A stretch of DNA of 64,000 nt from a virus: positions 20,578 through 84,577 of IMG/VR virus record IMGVR_UViG_3300030107_007800. One strand, written 5' to 3'. Position 1 is the stretch's first letter. Each line of letters opens with the position of its first letter. Below the pieces are notes generated by a model that was given only the letters and a program-made list of their open reading frames with translations, did not search any database and was not told the origin of the DNA. Position numbers and translations under genes: made by a program. Shown piece by piece: positions 1-18,681 of this stretch.

Positions 1-651
1 AAATCAAAAGAGCAGTTTTTATATGGCTCTATACCGATATATATAAAGAATGATCTATTTTTTTTAGATAATAGTAGCGACATTGGTCAAGTCATAAATA
101 TCGTTGAAAAGAGTGTTCCATCGCATTTGGTGACTAGTATTGATGTTGTTTATGTTGGGGACTTCCAAGAATTTGAAAACAAAAGATTTAATGCCGCATA
201 TGAAGATGGTGCAATTTATGTTATAAATGTTCAAGACAATGCAAAAGACATGGCGGACGATATTGTTCACGAAATAGCCCACTCTCTAGAAGAAAAATAT
301 ACAGATCACATATATGGTGACGGACAATTACAAAATGAGTTTTTAGGGAAAAGAGAGAGGCTGTATCAAATTTTAAAAGCCAATAATGAGAATTCTCAAG
401 AACACAAGAATCTGTTTTACGACTTAGATTATGACGCTAAATTTGATGACTATCTTGTCAATCAAGTTGGATATAAAAAATTAAGAAACTATATCAACGG
501 TCTGTTTTATTCCCCATATGCAGCAACATCAGTTAGGGAATACTTTGCAAGAGGGTTTGAAGCCTACTTTCTATTTAAAGATCAAAAATATCTTGCAAAT
601 ATTAGCCCCATACTGTATAATAAGATTGAAACCTTAGCGGATATGGAGTAA
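1..651 (+). CDS. Zincin-like metallopeptidase (5'-truncated; frame is open from base 1)
   Basis: HEIAH (HExxH) motif plus downstream REYFARGF, resembling the third-ligand helix of anthrax-lethal-factor-like zincins. No stop in frame between base 1 and the ORF-track start at 127. Confidence 0.6.
   Translation, partial: KSKEQFLYGSIPIYIKNDLFFLDNSSDIGQVINIVEKSVPSHLVTSIDVVYVGDFQEFENKRFNAAYEDGAIYVINVQDNAKDMADDIVHEIAHSLEEKYTDHIYGDGQLQNEFLGKRERLYQILKANNENSQEHKNLFYDLDYDAKFDDYLVNQVGYKKLRNYINGLFYSPYAATSVREYFARGFEAYFLFKDQKYLANISPILYNKIETLADME
593..621 (+). promoter_or_regulatory. Sigma70-type promoter TTGCAA-17 bp-TATAAT inside the 3' end of the first gene
   Basis: TTGCAA at 593-598, exact 17-nt spacer, perfect TATAAT at 616-621. 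GGAG at 645-648 precedes the ATG at 654. Confidence 0.6.
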
Positions 652-7991: not shown

Positions 7992-8735
7992 ATGTCAAGC
8001 CCAAGTAATCCAAAAATATCGATAATTATACCCTGCTATAATTCTGAAAAGTGGATCACCCGCTCTGTAAATTCAGCGTTAAATCAAGATTATAAATTTA
8101 CGGAGGTTATAGTCGTTGACAATGAAAGCACTGATGATAGTTTACAGATAATAAAAAACATACAAAAACAAAACAAGAGATTAATTGTTAGCACGGCTCC
8201 TAATTTATATAAATATTCTTGGACAGAACCTGTAGAAGAAGCCTTATCATTATGTAGTGGGGAGTATTTTACTATTTTGGGTTCTGATGATTACATATCC
8301 AACGAATATGTAGAAAATATTTCTAACATAATAAAAAAAAGTAATGGCAAAATTGAGGTTTTTCAAAGTCCAATAAGGGGTGTTGACTCTCAAGAAAGCG
8401 CACTGAATGATATTGGGCACCATTATAAGAATTTAACAGAATTTAAGAACAAGTTATTTACAGGGTGCCCAGTTAACACACCAGCCGTTGTATATAAAAA
8501 ATGCTTACACGAAGAAGGTAATATTTTTTGGGATTCTGAACAATATCTTGGATCTGCTGATTATAATTTGTATTTCCACCTTGCAGATAAGAAAAAATTT
8601 GTATATCCTTTCCCTAAATGGATTGGTTATTATTATAGGTGGCACTCCGAACAGTCAACGTGGGGAATGCAAAAAGAAGTAACAAGATATGATGAAATAA
8701 TCAAAGATAAATGGAGAAAAAAGTGGAATCTTTGA
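7992..8735 (+). CDS. GT2 (GT-A) glycosyltransferase
   Basis: ISIIIPCYN, VIVVDNESTD, LGSDD motifs. Confidence 0.9.
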   Translation: MSSPSNPKISIIIPCYNSEKWITRSVNSALNQDYKFTEVIVVDNESTDDSLQIIKNIQKQNKRLIVSTAPNLYKYSWTEPVEEALSLCSGEYFTILGSDDYISNEYVENISNIIKKSNGKIEVFQSPIRGVDSQESALNDIGHHYKNLTEFKNKLFTGCPVNTPAVVYKKCLHEEGNIFWDSEQYLGSADYNLYFHLADKKKFVYPFPKWIGYYYRWHSEQSTWGMQKEVTRYDEIIKDKWRKKWNL

Positions 8736-10519
8736 CAGTATCGGATTACATATTTAAAAAATTGTCTCAAGTTGGCATCAAGCATACGTTTACTATAACG
8801 GGCGGCGGAGCGATGTTTTTAAATGACTCTGCACATAGAAATAGTAACATAGAGGTTATTTGTAATCACCACGAGCAAGCATCCGCAATGGCTGCGGTTG
8901 CATGTTCAAAGTATACAAATAATTATTCTTGCGTAATGGTAACTACTGGGTGCGGTTCAACAAATGCTATCACCGGCTTGTTAGAAGCTTGGCAAGACAA
9001 TTTACCAGTTGTTTTTTTGTCTGGGCAAGTCAATTCTCATCAAACTAGTAAAGATTTTAATCTTGGATTAAGGCAAGTTGGCGTTCAAGAGGCTGATATA
9101 ATATCGGTTGTCAAACCAATGACAAAATATGCAAAGATGATAAAGAACCCTGCCGACATAAGATATGAGCTTGAAAAGGCTTTGTATATTGCCAAAGATG
9201 GCAGACCCGGACCTGTGTGGCTTGATATACCGCTTGATATTCAAGGGGCGCACATTAGGGAAAGAGATCTTAAATCATACGAAGTCGTAAAAAATAATTG
9301 TCACAATAGCGATGATGAAATAGAGGAATTTTTAAATAATTTAAAATTGTTCAAAAGACCAGTTGTTCTGGCTGGAAATGGTGTGAGGCTGTCGGGGGCA
9401 ACCAAAGAGATAAATGATTTTGTAATAAATAAAAATATTCCAATGGTTAACACGTTTTTAAGCGCAGATCTTATGCACAGTGAGCATTATCTAAATGTGG
9501 GTAGAGTTGGAATTAAGGGCAATAGAGCGGCAAATTTTGCAATGCAAAATGCTGATCTTTTGATTGTAATAGGGTGCAGATTAAGTGTTGCAACAACTGG
9601 TTATAAATATCATTATTTTGCTAGAGGCGCTAAAGTTGTTGTTATAGATATTGATGAACAGGAACACAAAAAAGAAACTGTAAAAATTGATAAATTTATA
9701 AAATCTGATGCAAAAAAGTTTTTAAATAAGTGTAATAAATACGACTTCATAGCGCCAACGAAGTGGTCAGAGGAATGCTATAAGTGGAAAAATAATTGGG
9801 ATAAACTGCCACAGGGAGCGGATGATGATAGTGAGGGGATTAGTATGTATTATTTCATGAATCATCTGTCAAAAAATAATAAACAAAATTCTGTTGTTGT
9901 TTCGGATGCTGGATCAGCATATTACGTTACAAGTCAATCACTGAGAATATCTGGCGAACAAAGATATATAACTTCGGGAGCACAAGCGGATATGGGCTTT
10001 ACGATACCAGCCTGCATTGGGATATCTAGTGCTTCAAACAAAAGATTGGATGTTATAGGCATAACTGGGGATGGATCATTTCAAACAAACTTGCAAGAAC
10101 TACAGACAATAAAACACCATAATTACCCGATAAAAATATTTGTTTTAAATAATGAAGGTTATCTCTCCATTAGAACAACTCAAAGAAAATTTTTCAATGA
10201 TAGATTTGTTGGAACTGATAAAGAGTCGGGGATATCTTTCCCAAAAACCTCTGACATTGCCAGAGCATATGGAATAAAATATTTTTCTTTTAAAACAAAT
10301 AAAGAAGTGGAAAACAACATTAAAGATGTGTTAGAATTTGATGGACCATTGATATGTGAGGTAAGTTGTAGAAAATGGGATCAGGTTTTACCCACCATCA
10401 GTTCCAAGAAAACACCTGATGGCAAGATGGTGTCAAAACCTTTAGAAGATATGTTTCCTTTCTTAACTAGAGAGGAATTTAATGATAATATGATCGTCGA
10501 GCCATTACCGGAGGATTAA
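8711..10519 (+). CDS. ThDP-dependent acetolactate-synthase-like enzyme (YerE-like carboligase by context)
   Basis: HHEQA, GRPGPVWLDIPLD, GDGS-x-LNN ThDP-binding motif; located beside rfbH and sugar SDRs. Confidence 0.85.
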   Translation: MEKKVESLTVSDYIFKKLSQVGIKHTFTITGGGAMFLNDSAHRNSNIEVICNHHEQASAMAAVACSKYTNNYSCVMVTTGCGSTNAITGLLEAWQDNLPVVFLSGQVNSHQTSKDFNLGLRQVGVQEADIISVVKPMTKYAKMIKNPADIRYELEKALYIAKDGRPGPVWLDIPLDIQGAHIRERDLKSYEVVKNNCHNSDDEIEEFLNNLKLFKRPVVLAGNGVRLSGATKEINDFVINKNIPMVNTFLSADLMHSEHYLNVGRVGIKGNRAANFAMQNADLLIVIGCRLSVATTGYKYHYFARGAKVVVIDIDEQEHKKETVKIDKFIKSDAKKFLNKCNKYDFIAPTKWSEECYKWKNNWDKLPQGADDDSEGISMYYFMNHLSKNNKQNSVVVSDAGSAYYVTSQSLRISGEQRYITSGAQADMGFTIPACIGISSASNKRLDVIGITGDGSFQTNLQELQTIKHHNYPIKIFVLNNEGYLSIRTTQRKFFNDRFVGTDKESGISFPKTSDIARAYGIKYFSFKTNKEVENNIKDVLEFDGPLICEVSCRKWDQVLPTISSKKTPDGKMVSKPLEDMFPFLTREEFNDNMIVEPLPED

Positions 10520-10520
10520 A

Positions 10521-11489
10521 ATGCCAGCAGATGATAAAAATAAAGTTACTATTTTAAAATTAAGAAGACAAAAAGAACAAAATCAAAAGACTGTTCTCAC
10601 AACAGCATATGATTATCCACAGGCAACCATTGCAGATGGTGCGGGGGTTGATTGCATATTAGTTGGAGATTCAGCAGGGATGACAACTTTCGGATATAAA
10701 ACAACAATTCCAGTGACTATGGATCAAATGATTACTTGCTGCGAGTCTGTATCTAGGGGTGCAAAAAATTCTTTTTTGATTGGGGATATGCCATATATGT
10801 CCTATCAGGTATCGAATGAAGAGGCTGTAATTAACGCTGGTAGATTCATTCGCGCTGGTATGGATTGTGTAAAGGTTGAGGGAGCTATGGTCGATAGGAT
10901 TAAGGCGATCTCAGATGCTGGCATTATGGTTATGAGCCACTTGGGATTAACGCCTCACACTAGGGCTATGTTGGGCGGCTATAGAGTTCAAGGAAAGACA
11001 GCGGAAGGTGCAGAGTACATTCTTAAACAAGCACTAGAGCTTCAGGAAGCTGGGTGTACATTTCTTCTTTTGGAGGGCATGCCAAGGGAATCTGCAAAAA
11101 TGATCAGAGATGAGTTATCAATCCCTGTTTATGGAATTGGGGCAGGGGATATGGTTGATGGTCAATTAGTTATTTTTCACGATCTGATGGGCTTGTTCTG
11201 GGAGTTTAAATCTAAGTTTGTAAAGAGGTATTGTGAGGCAGGATTAATGATGCAGGAGTCACTTAAACAATATGCTCATGAAGTCAGGACAGGCGCGTTC
11301 CCAGCAGAAGAAAACTTTTACGCTATTAAAGAAGAAGAGCTTGAAAAATTGTTATCCGGGGGCAATTGGAAAACTGAAAAGATAATTTATGAAACAGACC
11401 AAGGCTTTCCGACTAACCATTCAGCAACCCCTAATACGACACAGATTAATTGGCAAGCCTATATGAAACACGGCGATGCCTCTGATTAG
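10521..11489 (+). CDS. panB: Ketopantoate hydroxymethyltransferase family protein
   Basis: TAYD, ILVGDS, GDMPYMSY, VKVEG, HLGLTP, GIGAG, DGQ, KFVKRY motifs. Confidence 0.92.
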   Translation: MPADDKNKVTILKLRRQKEQNQKTVLTTAYDYPQATIADGAGVDCILVGDSAGMTTFGYKTTIPVTMDQMITCCESVSRGAKNSFLIGDMPYMSYQVSNEEAVINAGRFIRAGMDCVKVEGAMVDRIKAISDAGIMVMSHLGLTPHTRAMLGGYRVQGKTAEGAEYILKQALELQEAGCTFLLLEGMPRESAKMIRDELSIPVYGIGAGDMVDGQLVIFHDLMGLFWEFKSKFVKRYCEAGLMMQESLKQYAHEVRTGAFPAEENFYAIKEEELEKLLSGGNWKTEKIIYETDQGFPTNHSATPNTTQINWQAYMKHGDASD

Positions 11490-11497
11490 CGGTGTCG

Positions 11498-12340
11498 ATG
11501 AACATATTAATCACAGGTGGTAATGGGTTTATTGCCAAAAACATTTACCAAACAATCAAAGACGATCATAATGTCCATCTGACAAACAGGAAAACGTTAG
11601 ACATCCTAGACAAAGAACAGGTAAGTGTTTATTTCGATAACCACCAGATAGATGTTGTGATCCACACAGCAGTATCTGGGGGCAGCAGGATCAAGGAAGA
11701 TGGTCCGGGCGCACTAATAAACAATTTAGTAATGTTTGATAATCTTGTTAAAAACAATCACAAGTTTGGTTCGTTAATTCATTTTGGCTCTGGTGCTGAA
11801 TTTGATAGGAGAACCGATATTAAATCAGCAAAAGAAGATGATGAATCTAGTCCTGTTGATTATTATGGACTATCAAAAAAAATTATTAAAAGACAAATAG
11901 ATAAAATAGATAACTTTTATAACTTGAGAATATTTGGTTGCTTTGGCGTTGGTGAGGCAGACACAAGATTTGTAAAATCAGCAATCAAAAATGTGAGAAA
12001 TGGAAATCCAATAGTAATACATCAGAACAGATATATGGATTTTGTCTATGTCGGCGATCTCTGCAAAGTAGTGCGATATTACATTAAAAATATTGCAAAA
12101 AAAAACTTACCAAAAGATGTCAATTTGTGCTATAATAACAGCAAATCGTTACTAGATGTGGCAAATAAAATTAATGAATTTATGGGAAAGCCAAGTAATA
12201 ACGTAAACATTGAGAAGTCCGAGTTTTACACAGAATATACTGGAAACGGCGATAGATTAGAGTCGCTAGGAATAGATTTAGTTGGTCTAGATGAGGGGTT
12301 GAAAAGAACAATAGAATGGCAAAAGACATTAATCAATTAA
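11498..12340 (+). CDS. NAD-dependent epimerase/reductase (extended SDR)
   Basis: ITGGNGFIA, GSGAEF, YGLSK catalytic motif. Confidence 0.85.
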   Translation: MNILITGGNGFIAKNIYQTIKDDHNVHLTNRKTLDILDKEQVSVYFDNHQIDVVIHTAVSGGSRIKEDGPGALINNLVMFDNLVKNNHKFGSLIHFGSGAEFDRRTDIKSAKEDDESSPVDYYGLSKKIIKRQIDKIDNFYNLRIFGCFGVGEADTRFVKSAIKNVRNGNPIVIHQNRYMDFVYVGDLCKVVRYYIKNIAKKNLPKDVNLCYNNSKSLLDVANKINEFMGKPSNNVNIEKSEFYTEYTGNGDRLESLGIDLVGLDEGLKRTIEWQKTLIN

Positions 12341-13647
12341 TTAAAGATTGTTTAGAATATATTAGCGAGAATAGACCCCAAAATGATTGGGTTTCATACT
12401 CAGGTCCTATTCTGGATGACGATGAATATGCAGCTGCTTTGAGGGTAATTCTTCAAGACTGGTCTAAAAATTGGCTTATTTTTGGCAAGAAGGCTAGGGA
12501 GTTTGAACTTGAGTTTCCAAAATATTTGGGTACTAAATTTGGATCTTACACAAACTCTGGTAGTTCTGCGAACCTTCTTGCGATATCTTCGTTGACATCA
12601 AAGTCGGGATTTAATTTACCAAAAGGATCAAAAGTATTAACGCCAGTTGTATGCTTTCCCACTACTTTAAATCCAATCATTCAGAGTGGATTAAAGCCAG
12701 TGTTTGTTGACGTCACACTGCCGGATTTAAACCTAGATTTAGATCAAACAGAGGAATTATTAAAAAAGGACCCTGATATTAGGGCGATTGTTTTTGCACA
12801 TGTCCTTGGCAATCCCCCCGATATGGAAAGGGTTATGATGTTGGTTGATCAATATGATCTGGTTTTTATTGAAGACGCTTGTGATGCCCTCGGATCTTTT
12901 TACGACGGTCAAAAACTGGGATCTTTTGGACACATTTCAACCTGCTCTTTCTTCCCAGCGCATCATATGACAACTGGAGAAGGCGGGTTTGTTGCAACAA
13001 ATCGTTCAAAATTGAGAAAGTCTATTGCAAGTCTGAGAGATTGGGGTAGAGCTTGCTATTGTAACACATCTAAGCCCGGATCTGTAATTGACGGAACTGC
13101 TTGTGGAAATAGGTTCAAAAACTGGTTAGTTGGAATGCCAGATACAACCTATGATCATCGCTATGTTTTTGATGAGATAGGATATAATTTAAAGCCCCTC
13201 GACATTCAAGCAGCAATAGGGCTTGAACAGCTTAAGAAACTTCCATATTTGGAGGCAAGTCGTAGAAAAAACTTTGATAAGTTACAAGAAATATTTAGCA
13301 AATATGAAGATTATTTTCACTTGCCACAAGCAACTGAAAAATCTGACCCTTGCTGGTTTGCTTATCTTTTAACTGTAAAAAAAGGTAGTCCATTTACAAG
13401 GCAACAATTTGTTGATTTCTTGGAAGAAAATAAAATTCAAACAAGATCTTATTTTTCTGGCAATATCTTGGCTCATCCGGGATACAATCACTTGGCTGAT
13501 GAATATGAAGATATTCAAAAAGAATTCCCAATTGCTACATATTCTACCATTAATTCGTTCTTTTTGGGCACATATGCTGGTATAAATGACGAAAAAATGG
13601 CTTATATTGGTGAAATTGTTGATAAATTCTTTGAGGAAAGAGTATGA
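12316..13647 (+). CDS. rfbH: NDP-4-keto-6-deoxyglucose 3-dehydrase (E1, RfbH/DdhC)
   Basis: NSGSSANL; SFFPAHHMTTGEGG with His in place of the aminotransferase Lys; RDWGRACYC...CGNRF Fe-S cysteines; YDHRY..DEIGYNLK. Confidence 0.9.
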   Translation: MAKDINQLIKDCLEYISENRPQNDWVSYSGPILDDDEYAAALRVILQDWSKNWLIFGKKAREFELEFPKYLGTKFGSYTNSGSSANLLAISSLTSKSGFNLPKGSKVLTPVVCFPTTLNPIIQSGLKPVFVDVTLPDLNLDLDQTEELLKKDPDIRAIVFAHVLGNPPDMERVMMLVDQYDLVFIEDACDALGSFYDGQKLGSFGHISTCSFFPAHHMTTGEGGFVATNRSKLRKSIASLRDWGRACYCNTSKPGSVIDGTACGNRFKNWLVGMPDTTYDHRYVFDEIGYNLKPLDIQAAIGLEQLKKLPYLEASRRKNFDKLQEIFSKYEDYFHLPQATEKSDPCWFAYLLTVKKGSPFTRQQFVDFLEENKIQTRSYFSGNILAHPGYNHLADEYEDIQKEFPIATYSTINSFFLGTYAGINDEKMAYIGEIVDKFFEERV

Positions 13648-14594
13648 AAATTGTATATGTTACGGGCTGTTTGGGGTTTATTGGATCCTACGTTACCAGA
13701 AAATGCCTTGAAAAAGGCTGGATGGTCTATGGAGTTGACAAGTGTACTTACGCAGCTAACACAGATTTAATCGAAGAGTTCACAAAACATTCAAATTTTA
13801 GGTTTGAAAGGGCGGATATTAAAGATTTAGACCACTTATATGACTGTGATTATGTAATAAACACAGCAGCAGAGTCACATGTTGCCAATAGCATTGTTAG
13901 TAGTGATAAATTCCTTGAAACCAACGTTTTGGGCACTAAAAACCTGCTAGAATTAATCAGAAGTAAGCAAAAAAACGTAGGAAAGAGACCGATTTTGTTA
14001 CATTTTAGCACCGATGAAGTCTATGGAGACATTGTAAGTGGCAATCATAGTGAAAATGATCTTCTGAAGCCTAGCAATCCGTATTCTGCATCAAAAGCAG
14101 CGGCGGATATGCTTGTTTTGGCGTGGGCTAGGACCTATGACCTTCAATATAACATAGTTAGACCAGCAAATAATTATGGTATAGGGCAATATCCCGAGAA
14201 ATTAATACCATTAACAATAAAAAACCTTAATCGTGGAAGAAAAACTTGTCTGCACAACAATGGTGAACCTTACAGGTGCTGGCTTCACGCAGATGATACA
14301 GCCGAAGCAGTAATAAGGATCATTGAAAGTGGAAAGTTAAATGAAATTTACAATATTTCTGGTCATGAAGAGCACAAAAATATCCATACAGTACAGAAAA
14401 TAATTGAATCCTACGGATACAACATTGGTGATATAAACAAGTATGTAGATTTCACATATTCTAGACAGGGGCAGGATGTAAGATATTCGGTTGATGACGA
14501 AAAGTTGCAATCTTTGGGGTGGTATCCTAAAAAGAAATTTGATGAAGAAATAGAAAGTATAGTAGAGTTTTATAAAAATAAATTTATTTGGTGA
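13644..14594 (+). CDS. rmlB: dTDP-glucose 4,6-dehydratase-like
   Basis: VTGCLGFIG, AAESHV, STDEVYG, PYSASKA, NNYG..QYPEKLIP, D.RY motifs. Confidence 0.85.
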   Translation: MKIVYVTGCLGFIGSYVTRKCLEKGWMVYGVDKCTYAANTDLIEEFTKHSNFRFERADIKDLDHLYDCDYVINTAAESHVANSIVSSDKFLETNVLGTKNLLELIRSKQKNVGKRPILLHFSTDEVYGDIVSGNHSENDLLKPSNPYSASKAAADMLVLAWARTYDLQYNIVRPANNYGIGQYPEKLIPLTIKNLNRGRKTCLHNNGEPYRCWLHADDTAEAVIRIIESGKLNEIYNISGHEEHKNIHTVQKIIESYGYNIGDINKYVDFTYSRQGQDVRYSVDDEKLQSLGWYPKKKFDEEIESIVEFYKNKFIW

Positions 14595-16810: not shown

Positions 16811-17608
16811 ATGAAAATAAAAAGAGCAGTAGTTTGCTTAAATTCATCACCATTGTATTCCGGCATGTGGGATATTCTTGCAGAAGTTTACGAAAAAACA
16901 ACAGACATTATTCCAACATTGATATTTTGTGGCACAAAAGATGAATTAGAAAAAGAGGTAAAAACAGATTTTGGAGAAGTGTATATTTTTCCTCAATATA
17001 AAGAATTTGTTGAAAGACCAGATCTAGACTGGACAGTTACGTGGACTCTGTTTTGGGCTATAGCAAATAAATTTCCAGACGATGTGTGTTGCTTTACTGG
17101 CATCGATGAATTGCCCATATCTGCTGTTTTGTGGGAGAAGATATCTAAAATACCTGACAACAAATATATTGTCGGACTAGGCTCAAAACCATATGGAGAT
17201 TTTGAGCACATAGCCTCTGGGCATAATATTGGAAAAGGATCTACTTTTAAAAAAATTCTTGACATACATAGCGACTTAAAGGTAGAATTAAATAGAGTTT
17301 GGGAATTGAGATATGATTTGTCAAGGTGCAATTTTGGATGGAATCTGGAAGACAATGGCTGGTGGGGGATGGACGAAGCATACATATCTAGCAAGTTGTA
17401 CGACCATCCAGACGTTGTTTTTATCGATAACGATTGGGTTTCTGAAAATCTTCAGAGCAAGAAAATAGACAGAATGTTCAATTGTAGTTATGATATACAC
17501 AGGCTAAATACAAAAGATTATTGGACTGCACACCTGATTAGACCGATCACTGATCCAAATAAAAAAGAAATAGTCTTAAGATTATTAAAAGATATGGGAA
17601 TTAGATGA
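16811..17608 (+). CDS. Hypothetical protein, possible glycosyltransferase
   Basis: 265-aa ORF in the operon; GIDELP and W.MDE motifs are weakly GT-A-like. Confidence 0.4.
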   Translation: MKIKRAVVCLNSSPLYSGMWDILAEVYEKTTDIIPTLIFCGTKDELEKEVKTDFGEVYIFPQYKEFVERPDLDWTVTWTLFWAIANKFPDDVCCFTGIDELPISAVLWEKISKIPDNKYIVGLGSKPYGDFEHIASGHNIGKGSTFKKILDIHSDLKVELNRVWELRYDLSRCNFGWNLEDNGWWGMDEAYISSKLYDHPDVVFIDNDWVSENLQSKKIDRMFNCSYDIHRLNTKDYWTAHLIRPITDPNKKEIVLRLLKDMGIR

Positions 17609-18681
17609 TGAATATTTTAGTTACCGCTGCCGGTAGTCCCGGATTCATAAATGTCAATAAGGCTATAAAATCATCTCGTGAATTGTTGGGCAAAGTTGTG
17701 GTCCATGGTTGCGACATAAATAAAGACTCCATAGGTCTTAAAATGATCAGTAATACTTTTGTTGCCCCTCGTGGAGATTCTGAAGAATATGTTTCGTGCA
17801 TTTATAATTATTGCAAAAAAAACAATATTGACTTATTGATACCTTGTGCTGATGAAGAGCTTTTACCGCTTTCAAGATCAAAAAGTATCTTCGACAGTAT
17901 TGGCTGTAATGTATTGGTTTCGGACCCCCCTTCTTTGCAGAAATGCTTAGATAAAGGCAGTTTATATAAGTTTTGCTCCGACAATGATTTGCAGCAGTAC
18001 ATTGTTAAACATCGCGTTTGTAATGATATAGATTCTTTATTGGATTCGTATAAACACTTAAATTCTTTGGGACATAAAGTGTGTGTTAAGCCTTCTAAAA
18101 CGCACGGCAGCCGAGGGTTTAGGTTGATAGAAGATGGCATTTCAAAAAAAGATTTTTTTGATAAAAAACCATCTCCACACGCTATAACACTGGATTCGTT
18201 GTGTGACATTTTAACTAGCGATGGCTCTGACACCTTTCCAGAATTACTAGTAATGGAGTATTTACCGGGGCAAGAATATAGCGTTGATTGTTATAAAAGA
18301 ACGCAAGATTTTCTATGCGTCACCAGAACTAGAGACGCAATAAAAGAAGGCATATGTGTTTCGGGTCAAACAATTGAAAACAAAGAATTGATAAGAGCGG
18401 CAAAAAAAATATATGAAAAAATAGGCTTGCTATACAATGCTAATATCCAATTTAGGTATGACCAGAAGGGAGATGCAAAGTTACTGGAAATAAATCCAAG
18501 ATTTTCGGGCACAATGGAGCACTGTAGAGCATCAGGAATTAATTTTGTAGAGGTAGCAGTGCATAATATTATGCAACTGAAGGAATACGACTATACAGTA
18601 AGATGGGGTGTAAAAATGAATCGTGTCTGGAGTGAGATATTTCAAAGCGGAAATGGCTTTTTTACTCTGGGGGGACTATAA
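17605..18681 (+). CDS. ATP-grasp ligase (carbamoyl-phosphate-synthase-like family)
   Basis: NILVTAAGSP, DK, VKP...GSRG, MEYLPGQEYSVD, LLEINPRFSG motifs. Confidence 0.85.
   Translation: MMNILVTAAGSPGFINVNKAIKSSRELLGKVVVHGCDINKDSIGLKMISNTFVAPRGDSEEYVSCIYNYCKKNNIDLLIPCADEELLPLSRSKSIFDSIGCNVLVSDPPSLQKCLDKGSLYKFCSDNDLQQYIVKHRVCNDIDSLLDSYKHLNSLGHKVCVKPSKTHGSRGFRLIEDGISKKDFFDKKPSPHAITLDSLCDILTSDGSDTFPELLVMEYLPGQEYSVDCYKRTQDFLCVTRTRDAIKEGICVSGQTIENKELIRAAKKIYEKIGLLYNANIQFRYDQKGDAKLLEINPRFSGTMEHCRASGINFVEVAVHNIMQLKEYDYTVRWGVKMNRVWSEIFQSGNGFFTLGGL

What the first reader, a model, noticed from the sequence alone, without database searches (positions are those of the whole stretch)
8711..14594. Yersiniose-like C4-branched 3,6-dideoxysugar module with an unexpected PanB
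Seen: ThDP enzyme - panB - SDR - rfbH - 4,6-dehydratase in one contiguous run. Established: in yersiniose A synthesis the 4,6-dehydratase and E1 (RfbH/DdhC) give the 4-keto-3,6-dideoxy sugar, ThDP-dependent YerE adds a pyruvate-derived C2 unit at C4, and an SDR (YerF) reduces it. PanB is not part of that pathway. Inference: PanB hydroxymethylates a 2-oxo-acid (for example pyruvate to 4-hydroxy-2-oxobutanoate, or ketoisovalerate to ketopantoate) that becomes the ThDP donor, or it modifies the acyl branch. Either would yield a longer, hydroxylated branched sugar by an undescribed route.
Basis: partly seen in the sequence, partly recalled or inferred. Interest (0 to 1): 0.8.

Follow-up and report, generated by a model that had tools for sequence, protein, structure and literature searches.

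The report
Phage branched-sugar genes with PanB
An uncultured aquatic phage, like many of its relatives, keeps a vitamin-B5 pathway enzyme (PanB) right beside a sugar-branching enzyme, so this common viral gene probably helps build an unusual branched sugar rather than vitamin B5.

Summary
Five tightly packed + strand genes at 8711-14594 encode a YerE-like ThDP carboligase, a canonical PanB, an extended SDR, an E1/RfbH-type 3-dehydratase and an RmlB-like 4,6-dehydratase. They lie in a 25-kb glycan island of an IMG/VR phage contig.

The ThDP enzyme is not an AHAS. Its best solved relative is the YerE-like JanthE, and it separates from AHAS on a tree at 100% support.

PanB lies directly beside a YerE-like gene in 36 of 36 phage loci found through PanB. 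This holds in two gene orders, in three ThDP clades and for two PanB lineages. None of 80 bacterial YerE-like loci has PanB; their neighbours include NeuB-family, HpcH/HpaI or HMGL-like enzymes. In two related viral loci an HpcH aldolase sits directly after the ThDP gene, where the window has PanB.

Best reading (0.6): PanB supplies a 4-hydroxy-2-oxo acid, probably ketopantoate. The carboligase decarboxylates it and adds it to C4 of an NDP-4-keto-3,6-dideoxyhexose, and the SDR reduces the branch. This is a new donor-supply variant of the 2022 scheme for acyl-branched sugars, in a phage setting. It also questions the reading of viral panB as a CoA gene. No biochemistry exists.

The parts
7992..8735 (+). 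GT2-family glycosyltransferase whose end overlaps the ThDP gene start by 25 nt. It is a candidate transferase for the branched sugar.
   Evidence: Pfam Glycos_transf_2, E 2e-24. A homologue lies upstream of the ThDP gene, directly or within two ORFs, in 7 of the 35 related loci that share the window's gene order (L005, L007, L009, L010, L012, L013, L014). Its role as the transferase is inferred.
8711..10519 (+). YerE-like ThDP-dependent carboligase. Proposed to decarboxylate a 2-oxo acid and add the acyl unit to C4 of an NDP-4-keto-3,6-dideoxyhexose.
   Evidence: Three TPP domains. Best PDB hit is 8RPH, JanthE, at 377 bits; then 5AHK at 252 bits; AHAS reach 207 bits or less. It scores below all AHAS equivalog cut-offs. 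On the tree it lies in the non-AHAS clade, split at SH-aLRT 100. The GDG ThDP motif is invariant in alignment A1 (G453, G455).
10521..11489 (+). PanB (3-methyl-2-oxobutanoate hydroxymethyltransferase) with a C-terminal extension of about 55 aa. Proposed supplier of the 4-hydroxy-2-oxo acid donor.
   Evidence: Pfam 323.7 bits. Over both the TIGR00222 and NF001452 cut-offs. PDB 1OY0 and 1M3U at E 4e-57 and 5e-56. E. coli positions D45, S46, D84, K112, E114, H136, E181 and I202 are identical in 36 of 36 phage PanBs; 212-214 carry conservative changes. Directly adjacent to the ThDP gene in 36 of 36 loci.
11492..12340 (+). Extended SDR (RmlD/epimerase-like). Proposed YerF/ErwF-type reductase of the branch carbonyl.
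   Evidence: Pfam Epimerase and RmlD_sub_bind. Only weak NCBIfam and PDB matches to RmlD. Homologues occur near the ThDP gene in 21 of 36 phage loci, 63 of 80 viral loci and 8 of 80 bacterial loci. The substrate is inferred.
12316..13647 (+). E1/RfbH-type PMP-dependent NDP-4-keto-6-deoxyhexose 3-dehydratase.
   Evidence: NF011936 441 bits, over the cut-off of 423. PDB 3BCX at E 1.4e-90; the alignment shows His where aminotransferases carry the PLP lysine, and the CxC...C cysteines are retained. A His-type 3-dehydratase is present in 30 of 36 loci.
13644..14594 (+). RmlB-like NDP-glucose 4,6-dehydratase.
   Evidence: Pfam GDP_Man_Dehyd and Epimerase. TIGR01181 305 bits, below the cut-off of 365; the CDP-glucose model scores only 84 bits. 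PDB dTDP-glucose 4,6-dehydratases at E 2e-68 and weaker.

Best explanation
The five genes make an NDP-activated, C4-acyl-branched 3,6-dideoxyhexose by the YerE/ErwE-type route, with PanB as the donor supplier.

Proposed steps:
1. The host supplies NDP-glucose, because no nucleotidyltransferase is found in the contig.
2. The RmlB-like enzyme makes the 4-keto-6-deoxy sugar.
3. The E1-type dehydratase removes the 3-OH to give the 4-keto-3,6-dideoxy sugar. Its reductase partner is not encoded nearby and is presumably the host's.
4. In parallel, PanB hydroxymethylates a host 2-oxo acid with 5,10-methylene-THF. The most likely reaction is 2-oxoisovalerate to ketopantoate. Less likely it makes a smaller 4-hydroxy-2-oxo acid.
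5. The YerE-like ThDP enzyme decarboxylates this acid and adds the activated aldehyde to the C4 ketone.
6. The SDR reduces the new branch carbonyl. This would give a 4-C-(1,3-dihydroxy-2,2-dimethylpropyl) type branch.
7. Neighbouring soluble glycosyltransferases then use the sugar, probably on phage proteins.

Shown here: the gene identities, the family placement and the conserved PanB-ThDP linkage. Inferred: every chemical step, the donor identity and the acceptor of the glycan.
For: 1. The ThDP enzyme is YerE-like.
- PDB ranking is JanthE (8RPH) 377 bits, then 5AHK 252 bits, then AHAS at 207 bits or less. The order is the same for the two other phage ThDP types.
- The tree of 109 enzymes splits the AHAS clade (E. 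coli IlvI, seven loci with an AHAS small subunit next door, and L113) from all phage and sugar-cluster enzymes at SH-aLRT 100.
- 33 of 79 bacterial homologues have an E1-like gene within 5 kb.

2. The acceptor pathway is present.
- The window has an E1-type dehydratase with His and the Cys motif and an RmlB-like dehydratase.
- 30 of 36 phage loci carry a His-type 3-dehydratase, 15 E1-like and 15 ColD-like.

3. The PanB-ThDP linkage is conserved.
- The two genes are directly adjacent in 36 of 36 loci: 23 in the order ThDP-PanB and 13 in the order PanB-ThDP.
- Among 80 viral loci found through the ThDP enzyme, 29 have PanB (25 of 74 distinct), 8-73 nt from the ThDP gene.
- A second PanB lineage, 44-47% identical to the window's, is linked to a ThDP gene in 4 of 4 loci.
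- PanB association needs at least 4 changes on a 175-row ThDP tree.
- Median pairwise identity is 76% for PanB and 35% for the ThDP enzyme.

4. The slot argument.
- Steitz et al. 2022 showed that aldolases beside YerE-like enzymes make 4-hydroxy-2-oxo acid donors. ErwE rejects pyruvate and accepts 4-hydroxy-2-oxobutanoate, -pentanoate and -hexanoate.
- 33 of 72 non-AHAS bacterial loci have NeuB, HpcH or HMGL genes within 5 kb.
- In the 80 viral loci, HpcH or HMGL (17 loci) and PanB (29 loci) never co-occur.
- L146 and L147 have the HpcH aldolase gene directly after the ThDP gene, where the window has PanB; two to three further ORFs then precede SDR, 3-dehydratase and 4,6-dehydratase. Their ThDP enzymes sit inside the starred 35-row clade that is otherwise PanB-associated.

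5. PanB looks like an ordinary small-molecule PanB.
- It is over the equivalog cut-off.
- The conserved E. coli positions and pocket residue I202 are identical; I212L, L213V and V214I are size-conservative. I202, I212 and V214 are named as scope-controlling positions in PMC7610986.

6. It is not a pantothenate pathway.
- No PanC or PanE/ApbA in the contig.
- None in four relatives, two of them estimated 100% complete.
Against: - There is no biochemical or structural-glycan evidence, and I know of no natural sugar with this branch.
- Ketopantoate has a quaternary carbon next to the keto group. In what I read, no YerE-like enzyme was tested with it. The bulkiest donor mentioned is 4-methyl-2-oxovalerate, for JanthE.
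- PanB was absent from all 80 bacterial YerE-like loci, so no cellular cluster with a solved glycan supports the idea.
- PanB is far more conserved than its partner. That would also fit a role independent of the partner's specificity.
- No nucleotidyltransferase and no FNR-like E3 reductase are present in the contig. No nucleotidyltransferase is present in four relatives either.
- The Pfam HpcH matches in L146 and L147 are marginal (26.3 and 26.5 bits against a cut-off of 25).
- 19 of 74 distinct viral YerE-like loci show none of the four donor-type genes within 6 kb.
- The 80-locus lists are the best 80 of more than 500 candidates, not a census.
Confidence: 0.6

Rival explanations
1. PanB acts after branching. 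The ThDP enzyme first adds an acetyl, propionyl or isobutyryl unit from an ordinary 2-oxo acid to the 4-keto sugar. PanB then hydroxymethylates the carbon next to the branch ketone on the NDP-sugar.
For: The adjacency data do not tell the order of reactions. The phage PanBs share a conserved C-terminal extension of about 40-55 aa that E. coli PanB lacks, which could bind a larger substrate. KPHMT is promiscuous as a class II aldolase (PMC7610986 passages).
Against: All E. coli active-site positions checked, including pocket residues, are kept in 36 of 36 phage PanBs, and the protein passes the PanB equivalog cut-off. That argues for a small 2-oxo acid chelated through its carboxylate, which the sugar-bound hydroxy-ketone lacks. 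In the documented cases the aldolase acts before the carboligase, and ErwE rejects pyruvate. Aldolases that make free 2-oxo acids occupy the position next to the ThDP gene.
Confidence: 0.1
2. PanB and the ThDP enzyme cooperate in another way. Either PanB acts as a class II aldolase that adds the 2-oxoisovalerate enolate directly to a keto electrophile, such as the 4-keto sugar or pyruvate, and the ThDP enzyme then processes the resulting 2-oxo acid. Or the pair makes a free hydroxy acid that is attached as an acyl substituent, for example by the ATP-grasp enzyme at 17605-18681.
For: KPHMT variants and wild type accept aldehydes up to C4 and C5 aldoses as electrophiles. The island has an ATP-grasp enzyme, two formyltransferase-like proteins and an aminotransferase, so acylated amino sugars are probably also made.
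Against: The ThDP enzyme belongs to the clade whose characterised members do the C4 branching themselves. The ATP-grasp gene does not appear in the PanB neighbourhoods of the 35 related loci. A 3-dehydratase, which is needed only for the 4-keto-3,6-dideoxy acceptor, accompanies the pair in 30 of 36 loci.
Confidence: 0.12
3. PanB is an auxiliary metabolic gene that boosts host pantothenate and CoA, as the virome and prasinovirus literature assumes. Its place next to the ThDP gene is inherited synteny without a shared function.
For: PanB is a canonical PanB by sequence and is much more conserved than its neighbours. PMC8940887 reads viral 'pantoate transferase' as a CoA-boosting gene. PMC6851583 suggests the same for prasinovirus PanB.
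Against: The adjacency survives two gene orders, three or more ThDP clades and two PanB lineages. That is not expected from passive synteny in mosaic phage islands where the other genes vary. Neither PanC nor PanE is present in two relatives estimated 100% complete. PanB lies inside a translationally tight sugar operon. Aldolases take the same position in relatives.
Confidence: 0.08

Closest known systems
Erwiniose, caryophyllose and gastriose pathways: the 'unifying scheme' for acyl-branched sugars (ErwE/ErwF/ErwI/ErwJ, MMAR_2331-2332, MygE/MygI/MygF; Steitz et al. 2022, PMC9306805)
   Same: A YerE-like ThDP carboligase sits beside an enzyme that forms a 4-hydroxy-2-oxo acid by C-C bond formation. 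With them are a reductase and the genes for the 4-keto-3,6-dideoxyhexose. The window has the same logic and the same kinds of partners.
   Different: The donor supplier here is PanB, a folate-dependent hydroxymethyltransferase of the PEP-mutase/ICL superfamily, rather than a pyruvate aldolase. The expected donor is ketopantoate, with a gem-dimethyl group, and not a pyruvate-aldehyde adduct. The setting is a phage glycan island with no membrane or export proteins, not a bacterial LPS or LOS cluster.
Yersiniose A pathway (YerE/YerF of Yersinia pseudotuberculosis)
   Same: 4,6-dehydratase, E1 3-dehydratase, ThDP branching at C4 and reduction of the branch, as summarised in PMC9306805 and PMC12247030.
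   Different: YerE uses pyruvate and gives a C2 branch, and no donor-making enzyme is needed. The window's dehydratase is closer to dTDP-type than to CDP-type enzymes. I had no YerE sequence to compare directly.
JanthE of Janthinobacterium sp. HH01 (PDB 8RPH/8RPI/8RPJ)
   Same: It is the closest solved relative of the window's ThDP enzyme (377 bits, E 1.5e-111). It is a YerE-like enzyme that accepts longer and bulkier 2-oxo acid donors and ketone acceptors.
   Different: JanthE has a CDG ThDP motif, whereas the window enzyme and its 40 aligned relatives have GDG. JanthE's physiological substrates are unknown. I could not see its gene neighbourhood.
Housekeeping PanB/KPHMT of pantothenate biosynthesis (E. 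coli 1M3U, M. tuberculosis 1OY0)
   Same: 38.5% identity to E. coli PanB, with all active-site positions checked conserved. It passes the curated equivalog cut-off.
   Different: No panC, panD-type context or panE in the phage genomes searched. It always lies beside a YerE-like gene. It has a conserved C-terminal extension.

Membership tests
YerE-like ThDP carboligases (decarboxylase superfamily) | Three-domain ThDP enzyme architecture with the GDG...N ThDP motif | tested here: met
   Pfam TPP_enzyme_N, _M and _C. G453, G455 and N481 are invariant in alignment A1.
YerE-like ThDP carboligases (decarboxylase superfamily) | Closer to characterised YerE-like enzymes than to AHAS | tested here: met
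   PDB ranking: JanthE 377 bits, 5AHK 252 bits, AHAS 207 bits or less. That 5AHK is PpYerE is recalled; one search found no paper naming it. On the tree the enzyme is separated from the AHAS clade at SH-aLRT 100. No YerE or ErwE sequence was available for the tree.
YerE-like ThDP carboligases (decarboxylase superfamily) | Clustered with the genes for an NDP-4-keto-3,6-dideoxyhexose and a reductase | tested here: met
   E1, RmlB-like and SDR genes follow in the same operon. The same association is seen in 30 of 36 phage loci and 33 of 79 bacterial loci.
YerE-like ThDP carboligases (decarboxylase superfamily) | Catalyses aldehyde-ketone cross-coupling onto a keto sugar | not testable with these tools
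   Needs an enzyme assay.
Acetohydroxyacid synthase (IlvB/IlvG/IlvI) | Reaches the curated AHAS model cut-offs and groups with AHAS | tested here: not met
   Best AHAS model TIGR00118 scores 356 bits against a cut-off of 538; all others are further below. It lies outside the AHAS clade.
Acetohydroxyacid synthase (IlvB/IlvG/IlvI) | Regulatory small subunit (ACT / ALS_ss_C) encoded next to it | tested here: not met
   No such domain appears in any of the 30 ORFs at 127-26786 that were scanned against Pfam. In contrast, 7 bacterial loci of the AHAS clade have it.
PanB / ketopantoate hydroxymethyltransferase | Passes the curated family models | tested here: met
   PF02548 323.7 bits; TIGR00222 275 vs 207.55; NF001452 312 vs 272.
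PanB / ketopantoate hydroxymethyltransferase | Metal-binding, catalytic and substrate-pocket residues of E. coli KPHMT | tested here: met
   D45, S46, D84, K112, E114, H136, E181 and I202 are identical in 36 of 36; I212L, L213V and V214I in 36 of 36. The roles of the first seven residues are recalled. I202, I212 and V214 are named in PMC7610986.
PanB / ketopantoate hydroxymethyltransferase | Works within a pantothenate pathway (PanC, PanE) | tested here: not met
   No PF02569 or PF02558 match in the contig or in four relatives, two of them 100% complete by CheckV. The host could still supply these enzymes.
E1 / RfbH / DdhC 3-dehydratase | Passes the RfbH model; His replaces the PLP lysine; [2Fe-2S] cysteine motif present | tested here: met
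   NF011936 441 vs 423. The alignment to 3BCX and to its H220K variant 3BB8 shows the His and the CxC...C cysteines. The motif definition is recalled.
E1 / RfbH / DdhC 3-dehydratase | Partner reductase E3 (FNR-like flavoprotein) | tested here: not met
   No PF00175 match in the contig, which is 47% complete. The step is presumed to depend on the host.
YerF/ErwF-type branch ketoreductase | NAD(P)-dependent reductase encoded beside the YerE-like gene | tested here: met
   An extended SDR follows PanB. Homologues lie beside or near the ThDP gene in 63 of 80 viral loci. No YerF or ErwF sequence was available for comparison, so orthology is not shown.

The most novel reading that the evidence does not exclude
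Abundant uncultured aquatic phages use ketopantoate, normally a vitamin-B5 intermediate, as the ThDP donor. The product would be a previously unseen 3,6-dideoxyhexose with a C5 gem-dimethyl dihydroxy branch, placed on their own proteins without any membrane step. If so, much of the 'pantoate transferase / panB' signal that viromics counts as a CoA or vitamin auxiliary gene belongs to virion glycan synthesis. The same may hold for the 'acetolactate synthase' plus PanB or oxovalerate-aldolase genes of prasinoviruses. YerE-type branched sugars would then be a common viral surface chemistry.
Probability: 0.35. Interest if true: 0.8.

Novelty: new variant of a known kind. Interest (0 to 1): 0.66.

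Why it matters
1. It would add a fourth kind of donor supplier, a folate-dependent hydroxymethyltransferase, to the ThDP-based route to acyl-branched sugars. It predicts a new sugar with a quaternary carbon in the branch, and an enzyme pair of use for making hindered tertiary alcohols.

2. It changes how a frequent viral 'auxiliary metabolic gene' is read. PMC8940887 reports 'pantoate transferase' as the most abundant vitamin/cofactor gene in its marine viromes and reads it as boosting CoA. In every phage locus examined here, PanB is part of a sugar operon. That the virome signal is the same gene family is my inference.

3. YerE-like branched-sugar modules turn out to be widespread in viral contigs, including giant-virus bins. 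This points to virus-made exotic glycans as a general feature.

4. The hypothesis can be tested directly with five soluble proteins.

Tried and rejected
- DNA-level search of the module against GenBank phages found nothing.
- Protein searches of PanB and of the ThDP enzyme in that collection gave only matches under 60% identity. Many lie in unannotated fragment records or in records titled as bacterial genomes. The only named phage PanB, in Microcystis phage MaAM05, lies next to panC and sufBCDS with no ThDP gene and looks like cellular DNA, so I dropped it.
- I looked for a PanB-ThDP fusion among 8 long relatives of the ThDP enzyme. There was none; the extra domains are cupin or unknown, HAD, methyltransferase and radical SAM/SPASM.
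- The search for homologous proteins with PanB returned only near-identical metagenome proteins (the best 120 all at 80% identity or more), so it gave no cellular relatives.
- I considered that the ThDP enzyme is a true AHAS feeding 2-oxoisovalerate to PanB. I rejected this on model scores, tree position and the lack of a small subunit.
- I did not establish which nucleotide carries the sugar, nor the identity of the 2-oxo acid.
- Prasinovirus genomes could not be reached with the tools, so that lead rests on paper passages only.
- Krug et al. 2024, the in-silico survey of more than 200 YerE-like clusters, and Lanza et al. 2024, the JanthE paper, are not held. They and the supplement of PMC9306805, which is closed, may list PanB-type clusters that I could not see.
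- 'Not in print' rests on five searches.
  - (YerE + pantoate): 32 papers, 10 listed. Only PMC11331486 was relevant, and it treats the two enzymes in separate sections.
  - zero occurrences of panB, hydroxymethyltransferase or phage in PMC12247030.
  - 21 papers, 15 listed.
  - 1 paper.
  - 0 papers.

Full report
**What is there**

The window is the last 64 kb of an 84.6-kb IMG/VR virus record, estimated 47% complete. Nearly all long ORFs are on the + strand and GC is about 36%.

From 1.4 to 26.8 kb lies a run of sugar-related genes: several glycosyltransferases, DUF268, an ATP-grasp enzyme, two formyltransferase-like proteins, two GFO/IDH/MocA oxidoreductases, a DegT aminotransferase, an epimerase-family SDR and Gmd. 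After it come a late-sigma-like gene and very large proteins, one with a baseplate-wedge match.

None of the 28 island proteins (1418-26786) has a hydrophobic stretch that would pass as a membrane helix in a simple Kyte-Doolittle scan.

The five genes of the finding fill 8711-14594 exactly, with 1-2 nt gaps or 4-25 nt overlaps.

**Identity of the five proteins**

- The 602-aa protein has the three ThDP-enzyme domains. It scores far below every curated AHAS cut-off.
- Its best solved relative is 8RPH (377 bits). A paper that I read in passages identifies 8RPH as JanthE, a YerE-like enzyme of Janthinobacterium sp. HH01.
- Second is 5AHK (252 bits). By recall this is the Pseudomonas protegens YerE homologue. 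PMC12247030 says only that PpYerE and JanthE structures exist, and one search found no paper naming the entry.
- True AHAS follow at 207 bits or less.
- PanB passes both curated PanB models and aligns over its whole catalytic domain with M. tuberculosis and E. coli PanB.
- The 443-aa protein passes the RfbH model. It aligns with the Yersinia E1 dehydrase 3BCX at E 1.4e-90. It has His at the position that the 3BB8 variant changes to Lys, and it retains the cysteines of the iron-sulfur motif (the motif definition is recalled).
- The last protein is an RmlB-like 4,6-dehydratase.
- The SDR has only distant RmlD-like matches.

**Is the PanB linkage conserved?**

A scan of IMG/VR with PanB gave 35 loci with PanB at 69-85% identity. 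After ORF calling and clustering, PanB is the direct neighbour of a ThDP enzyme in all 36 loci, window included. The order is ThDP-PanB in 23 and PanB-ThDP in 13. Some loci are near-duplicates: 30 distinct full-length ThDP sequences remain.

PanB is strikingly conserved, with pairwise identity of at least 68% and a median of 76%. The partner ThDP enzymes range from 28% identity upwards with a median of 35%.

Thirty of the 36 loci hold a DegT-fold protein with His in place of the PLP lysine. Fifteen of these have the E1 cysteine motif and 15 are ColD-like. One of the ColD-like proteins matches ColD 2GMS at E 2e-54. The six loci without one are all cut short of the full 10-kb flank on at least one side (4.1-17.2 kb held).

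The reciprocal scan used an alignment of 41 ThDP enzymes and gave 80 viral loci, 74 of them distinct. PanB lies 8-73 nt from the ThDP gene in 29 of them (25 distinct, 20 of these not seen before). Two further loci end 60-76 nt after the ThDP gene and cannot be judged.

Three of these loci carry a PanB only 44-46% identical to the window's. A scan with that PanB found 4 loci, two of them new. All have a ThDP gene beside PanB or about 1-1.7 kb away.

**Bacteria**

The same alignment, scanned over one genome per species, returned the best 80 of about 600 candidates, at 30-43% identity. None has a PanB homologue in up to 10 kb of flank.

Within 5 kb of the ThDP gene, 79 loci could be scored:

| Neighbour | Loci |
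|---|---|
| E1-like protein at 35% identity or more | 33 |
| Nucleotidyltransferase | 28 |
| NeuB-family enzyme | 19 |
| C-methyltransferase | 15 |
| HpcH/HpaI aldolase | 8 |
| AHAS small subunit | 7 |
| HMGL-like (DmpG-type) enzyme | 6 |

Of the 72 loci without an AHAS small subunit, 33 have at least one of NeuB, HpcH or HMGL.

**Trees**

On a maximum-likelihood tree of 109 ThDP enzymes, one clade is set apart at SH-aLRT 100. It holds E. coli IlvI, the seven loci with an AHAS small subunit, and L113.

All phage enzymes lie with the bacterial sugar-cluster enzymes, in three separate phage clades. The window's clade has 10 rows, and its sisters are three bacterial enzymes with NeuB or HMGL neighbours.

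A 175-row FastTree that adds the second viral set needs at least 4 changes of the state 'PanB next door'. The starred 35-row clade around the window holds 30 PanB-linked enzymes, two HpcH-linked ones, one with none of these genes, and the two cut loci.

**The slot argument**

I read parts 1-2 of 3 of the main text of Steitz et al. 2022; the supplement is closed. It shows the following.
- In the erwiniose, caryophyllose and gastriose clusters an aldolase lies beside the YerE-like enzyme.
- ErwE rejects pyruvate, but uses 4-hydroxy-2-oxobutanoate, -pentanoate and -hexanoate.
- A reductase follows the carboligase.

PanB's product, ketopantoate, is also a 4-hydroxy-2-oxo acid made by C-C bond formation.

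In the 80 viral loci, PanB (29) and HpcH or HMGL (17) never occur together. In L146 and L147 the order is ThDP, HpcH aldolase, two to three further ORFs, SDR, 3-dehydratase, 4,6-dehydratase. The aldolase therefore sits directly after the ThDP gene, exactly where the window has PanB. Their Pfam HpcH scores are only just over the cut-off. NeuB-family genes sit beside the ThDP gene in 11 further distinct viral loci. That they supply donors is my inference.

**Which 2-oxo acid?**

E. coli positions D45, S46, D84, K112, E114, H136, E181 and I202 are identical in all 36 phage PanBs. I212, L213 and V214 become L, V and I. Passages of PMC7610986 name I202A, I212A and V214G as the changes that widen KPHMT's scope.

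So the phage pocket is of normal size, which fits 2-oxoisovalerate or smaller substrates. I recall that E. coli PanB does not use pyruvate (Powers and Snell 1976, not seen here). I therefore favour ketopantoate, but this is the weakest link. In what I read, no YerE-like enzyme was tested with a donor that has a quaternary carbon next to the keto group.

**Against a vitamin role**

There is no PanC and no PanE/ApbA in the contig. There is none in four relatives of 117-194 kb either, two of them estimated 100% complete, and each of the four has one PanB.

No nucleotidyltransferase is found in the contig or in those four relatives, and no FNR-like E3 in the contig. NDP-glucose and the E1 reductant would therefore have to come from the host.

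**Literature context**

- PMC8940887 (passages) calls 'pantoate transferase' the most abundant vitamin/cofactor auxiliary gene in its marine viromes and reads it as raising CoA.
- PMC6851583 (passages) reports PanB in OlV7, OlV2, OlV5, OlV6 and OtV-2 with unknown role.
- PMC5371798 and PMC5454428 (passages) report 'acetolactate synthase' in prasinoviruses. In MpV-1 they report acetaldehyde dehydrogenase plus oxovalerate aldolase, read as amino-acid or aldehyde metabolism.

These gene sets resemble the ErwE/ErwI/ErwJ logic, but I could not reach those genomes. This is a lead only.

I found no paper linking PanB to YerE-like enzymes. Two key papers and all supplements could not be seen.

**Verdict**

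The module is a YerE-type branched 3,6-dideoxyhexose pathway, and PanB is a conserved member of it in phages. PanB most likely acts as the donor supplier (0.6).

It is a new variant of a scheme described in 2022, in a new setting. It also changes how viral panB should be read. Earlier notes of this scan on the same genome saw the same module (e1-6124863), and they read the island as an export-free virion glycosylation system (e1-6124861, e1-6127552, e1-6127551). Of that second reading I checked only the absence of membrane segments.

Noticed in passing
L002-L004, L008, L011, L015, L016, L018, L019 (ORF directly upstream of PanB, e.g. L019:8457-9995); L017 (same family directly downstream of the ThDP gene): In 9 of the 13 loci with the order PanB-ThDP, a B12-binding radical SAM enzyme of about 510 aa lies directly upstream of PanB; in L017 the same family lies just after the ThDP gene. 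These neighbourhoods often also hold a radical SAM/SPASM protein, an RmlC-like 3,5-epimerase, an Mpo1-like protein and a ColD-like dehydratase. This suggests a further-modified, perhaps C-methylated, branch.
   Followed up: partly
L146-L199, including GVMAG contigs L154, L169, L177, L194, L197: YerE-like ThDP enzymes with SDR, 3-dehydratase and 4,6-dehydratase neighbours are common in viral contigs. They occur also in contigs labelled as giant-virus bins, with HpcH aldolase, NeuB-family or HMGL-like genes beside them. Acyl-branched sugars may be widespread in viruses.
   Followed up: partly
window 11322-11489 (PanB residues about 268-322): The phage PanBs share a conserved C-terminal extension of about 40-55 aa, absent from E. 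coli PanB, that begins YAIKEEELEKLL. Its function is unknown.
   Followed up: no
window 1418-26786: None of the 28 island proteins has a predicted membrane helix. No NTP_transferase, PanC, ApbA or FNR-like domain is found in the 84.6-kb contig. The island also encodes an ATP-grasp enzyme, two formyltransferase-like proteins, two GFO/IDH/MocA oxidoreductases, a DegT aminotransferase, an epimerase-family SDR and Gmd. At least two more modified sugars are therefore probably made.
   Followed up: partly
L146:6450-7607 and L150:7815-8972: A 385-aa protein with two 4Fe-4S ferredoxin motifs and an LdpA-like C-terminus lies next to the HpcH or ThDP genes in two viral loci. It could be the missing electron donor for the E1-type dehydratase.
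   Followed up: no
literature (PMC6851583, PMC5371798, PMC5454428): Prasinoviruses are reported to carry 'acetolactate synthase' together with PanB (OlV7, OtV-2 and others), or with acetaldehyde dehydrogenase plus oxovalerate aldolase (MpV-1). These are read as amino-acid or CoA metabolism. The sets resemble the ErwE/ErwI/ErwJ and PanB schemes. Adjacency was not checked.
   Followed up: no
window 127-651: A 174-aa ORF has a sub-threshold Pfam match to the anthrax lethal-factor N/C-terminal domain family (E 6.9e-4, 19.8 bits against a cut-off of 27.4). Homologues occur in 10 of the 35 related loci. This is probably a chance match, or at most a metalloprotease-like fold.
   Followed up: no
L120, L121, L145, L155, L162 (about 5 kb downstream of the ThDP gene): Some PanB-bearing loci also have a NeuB-family gene just after the 4,6-dehydratase. 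The window has no NeuB homologue at that place.
   Followed up: no
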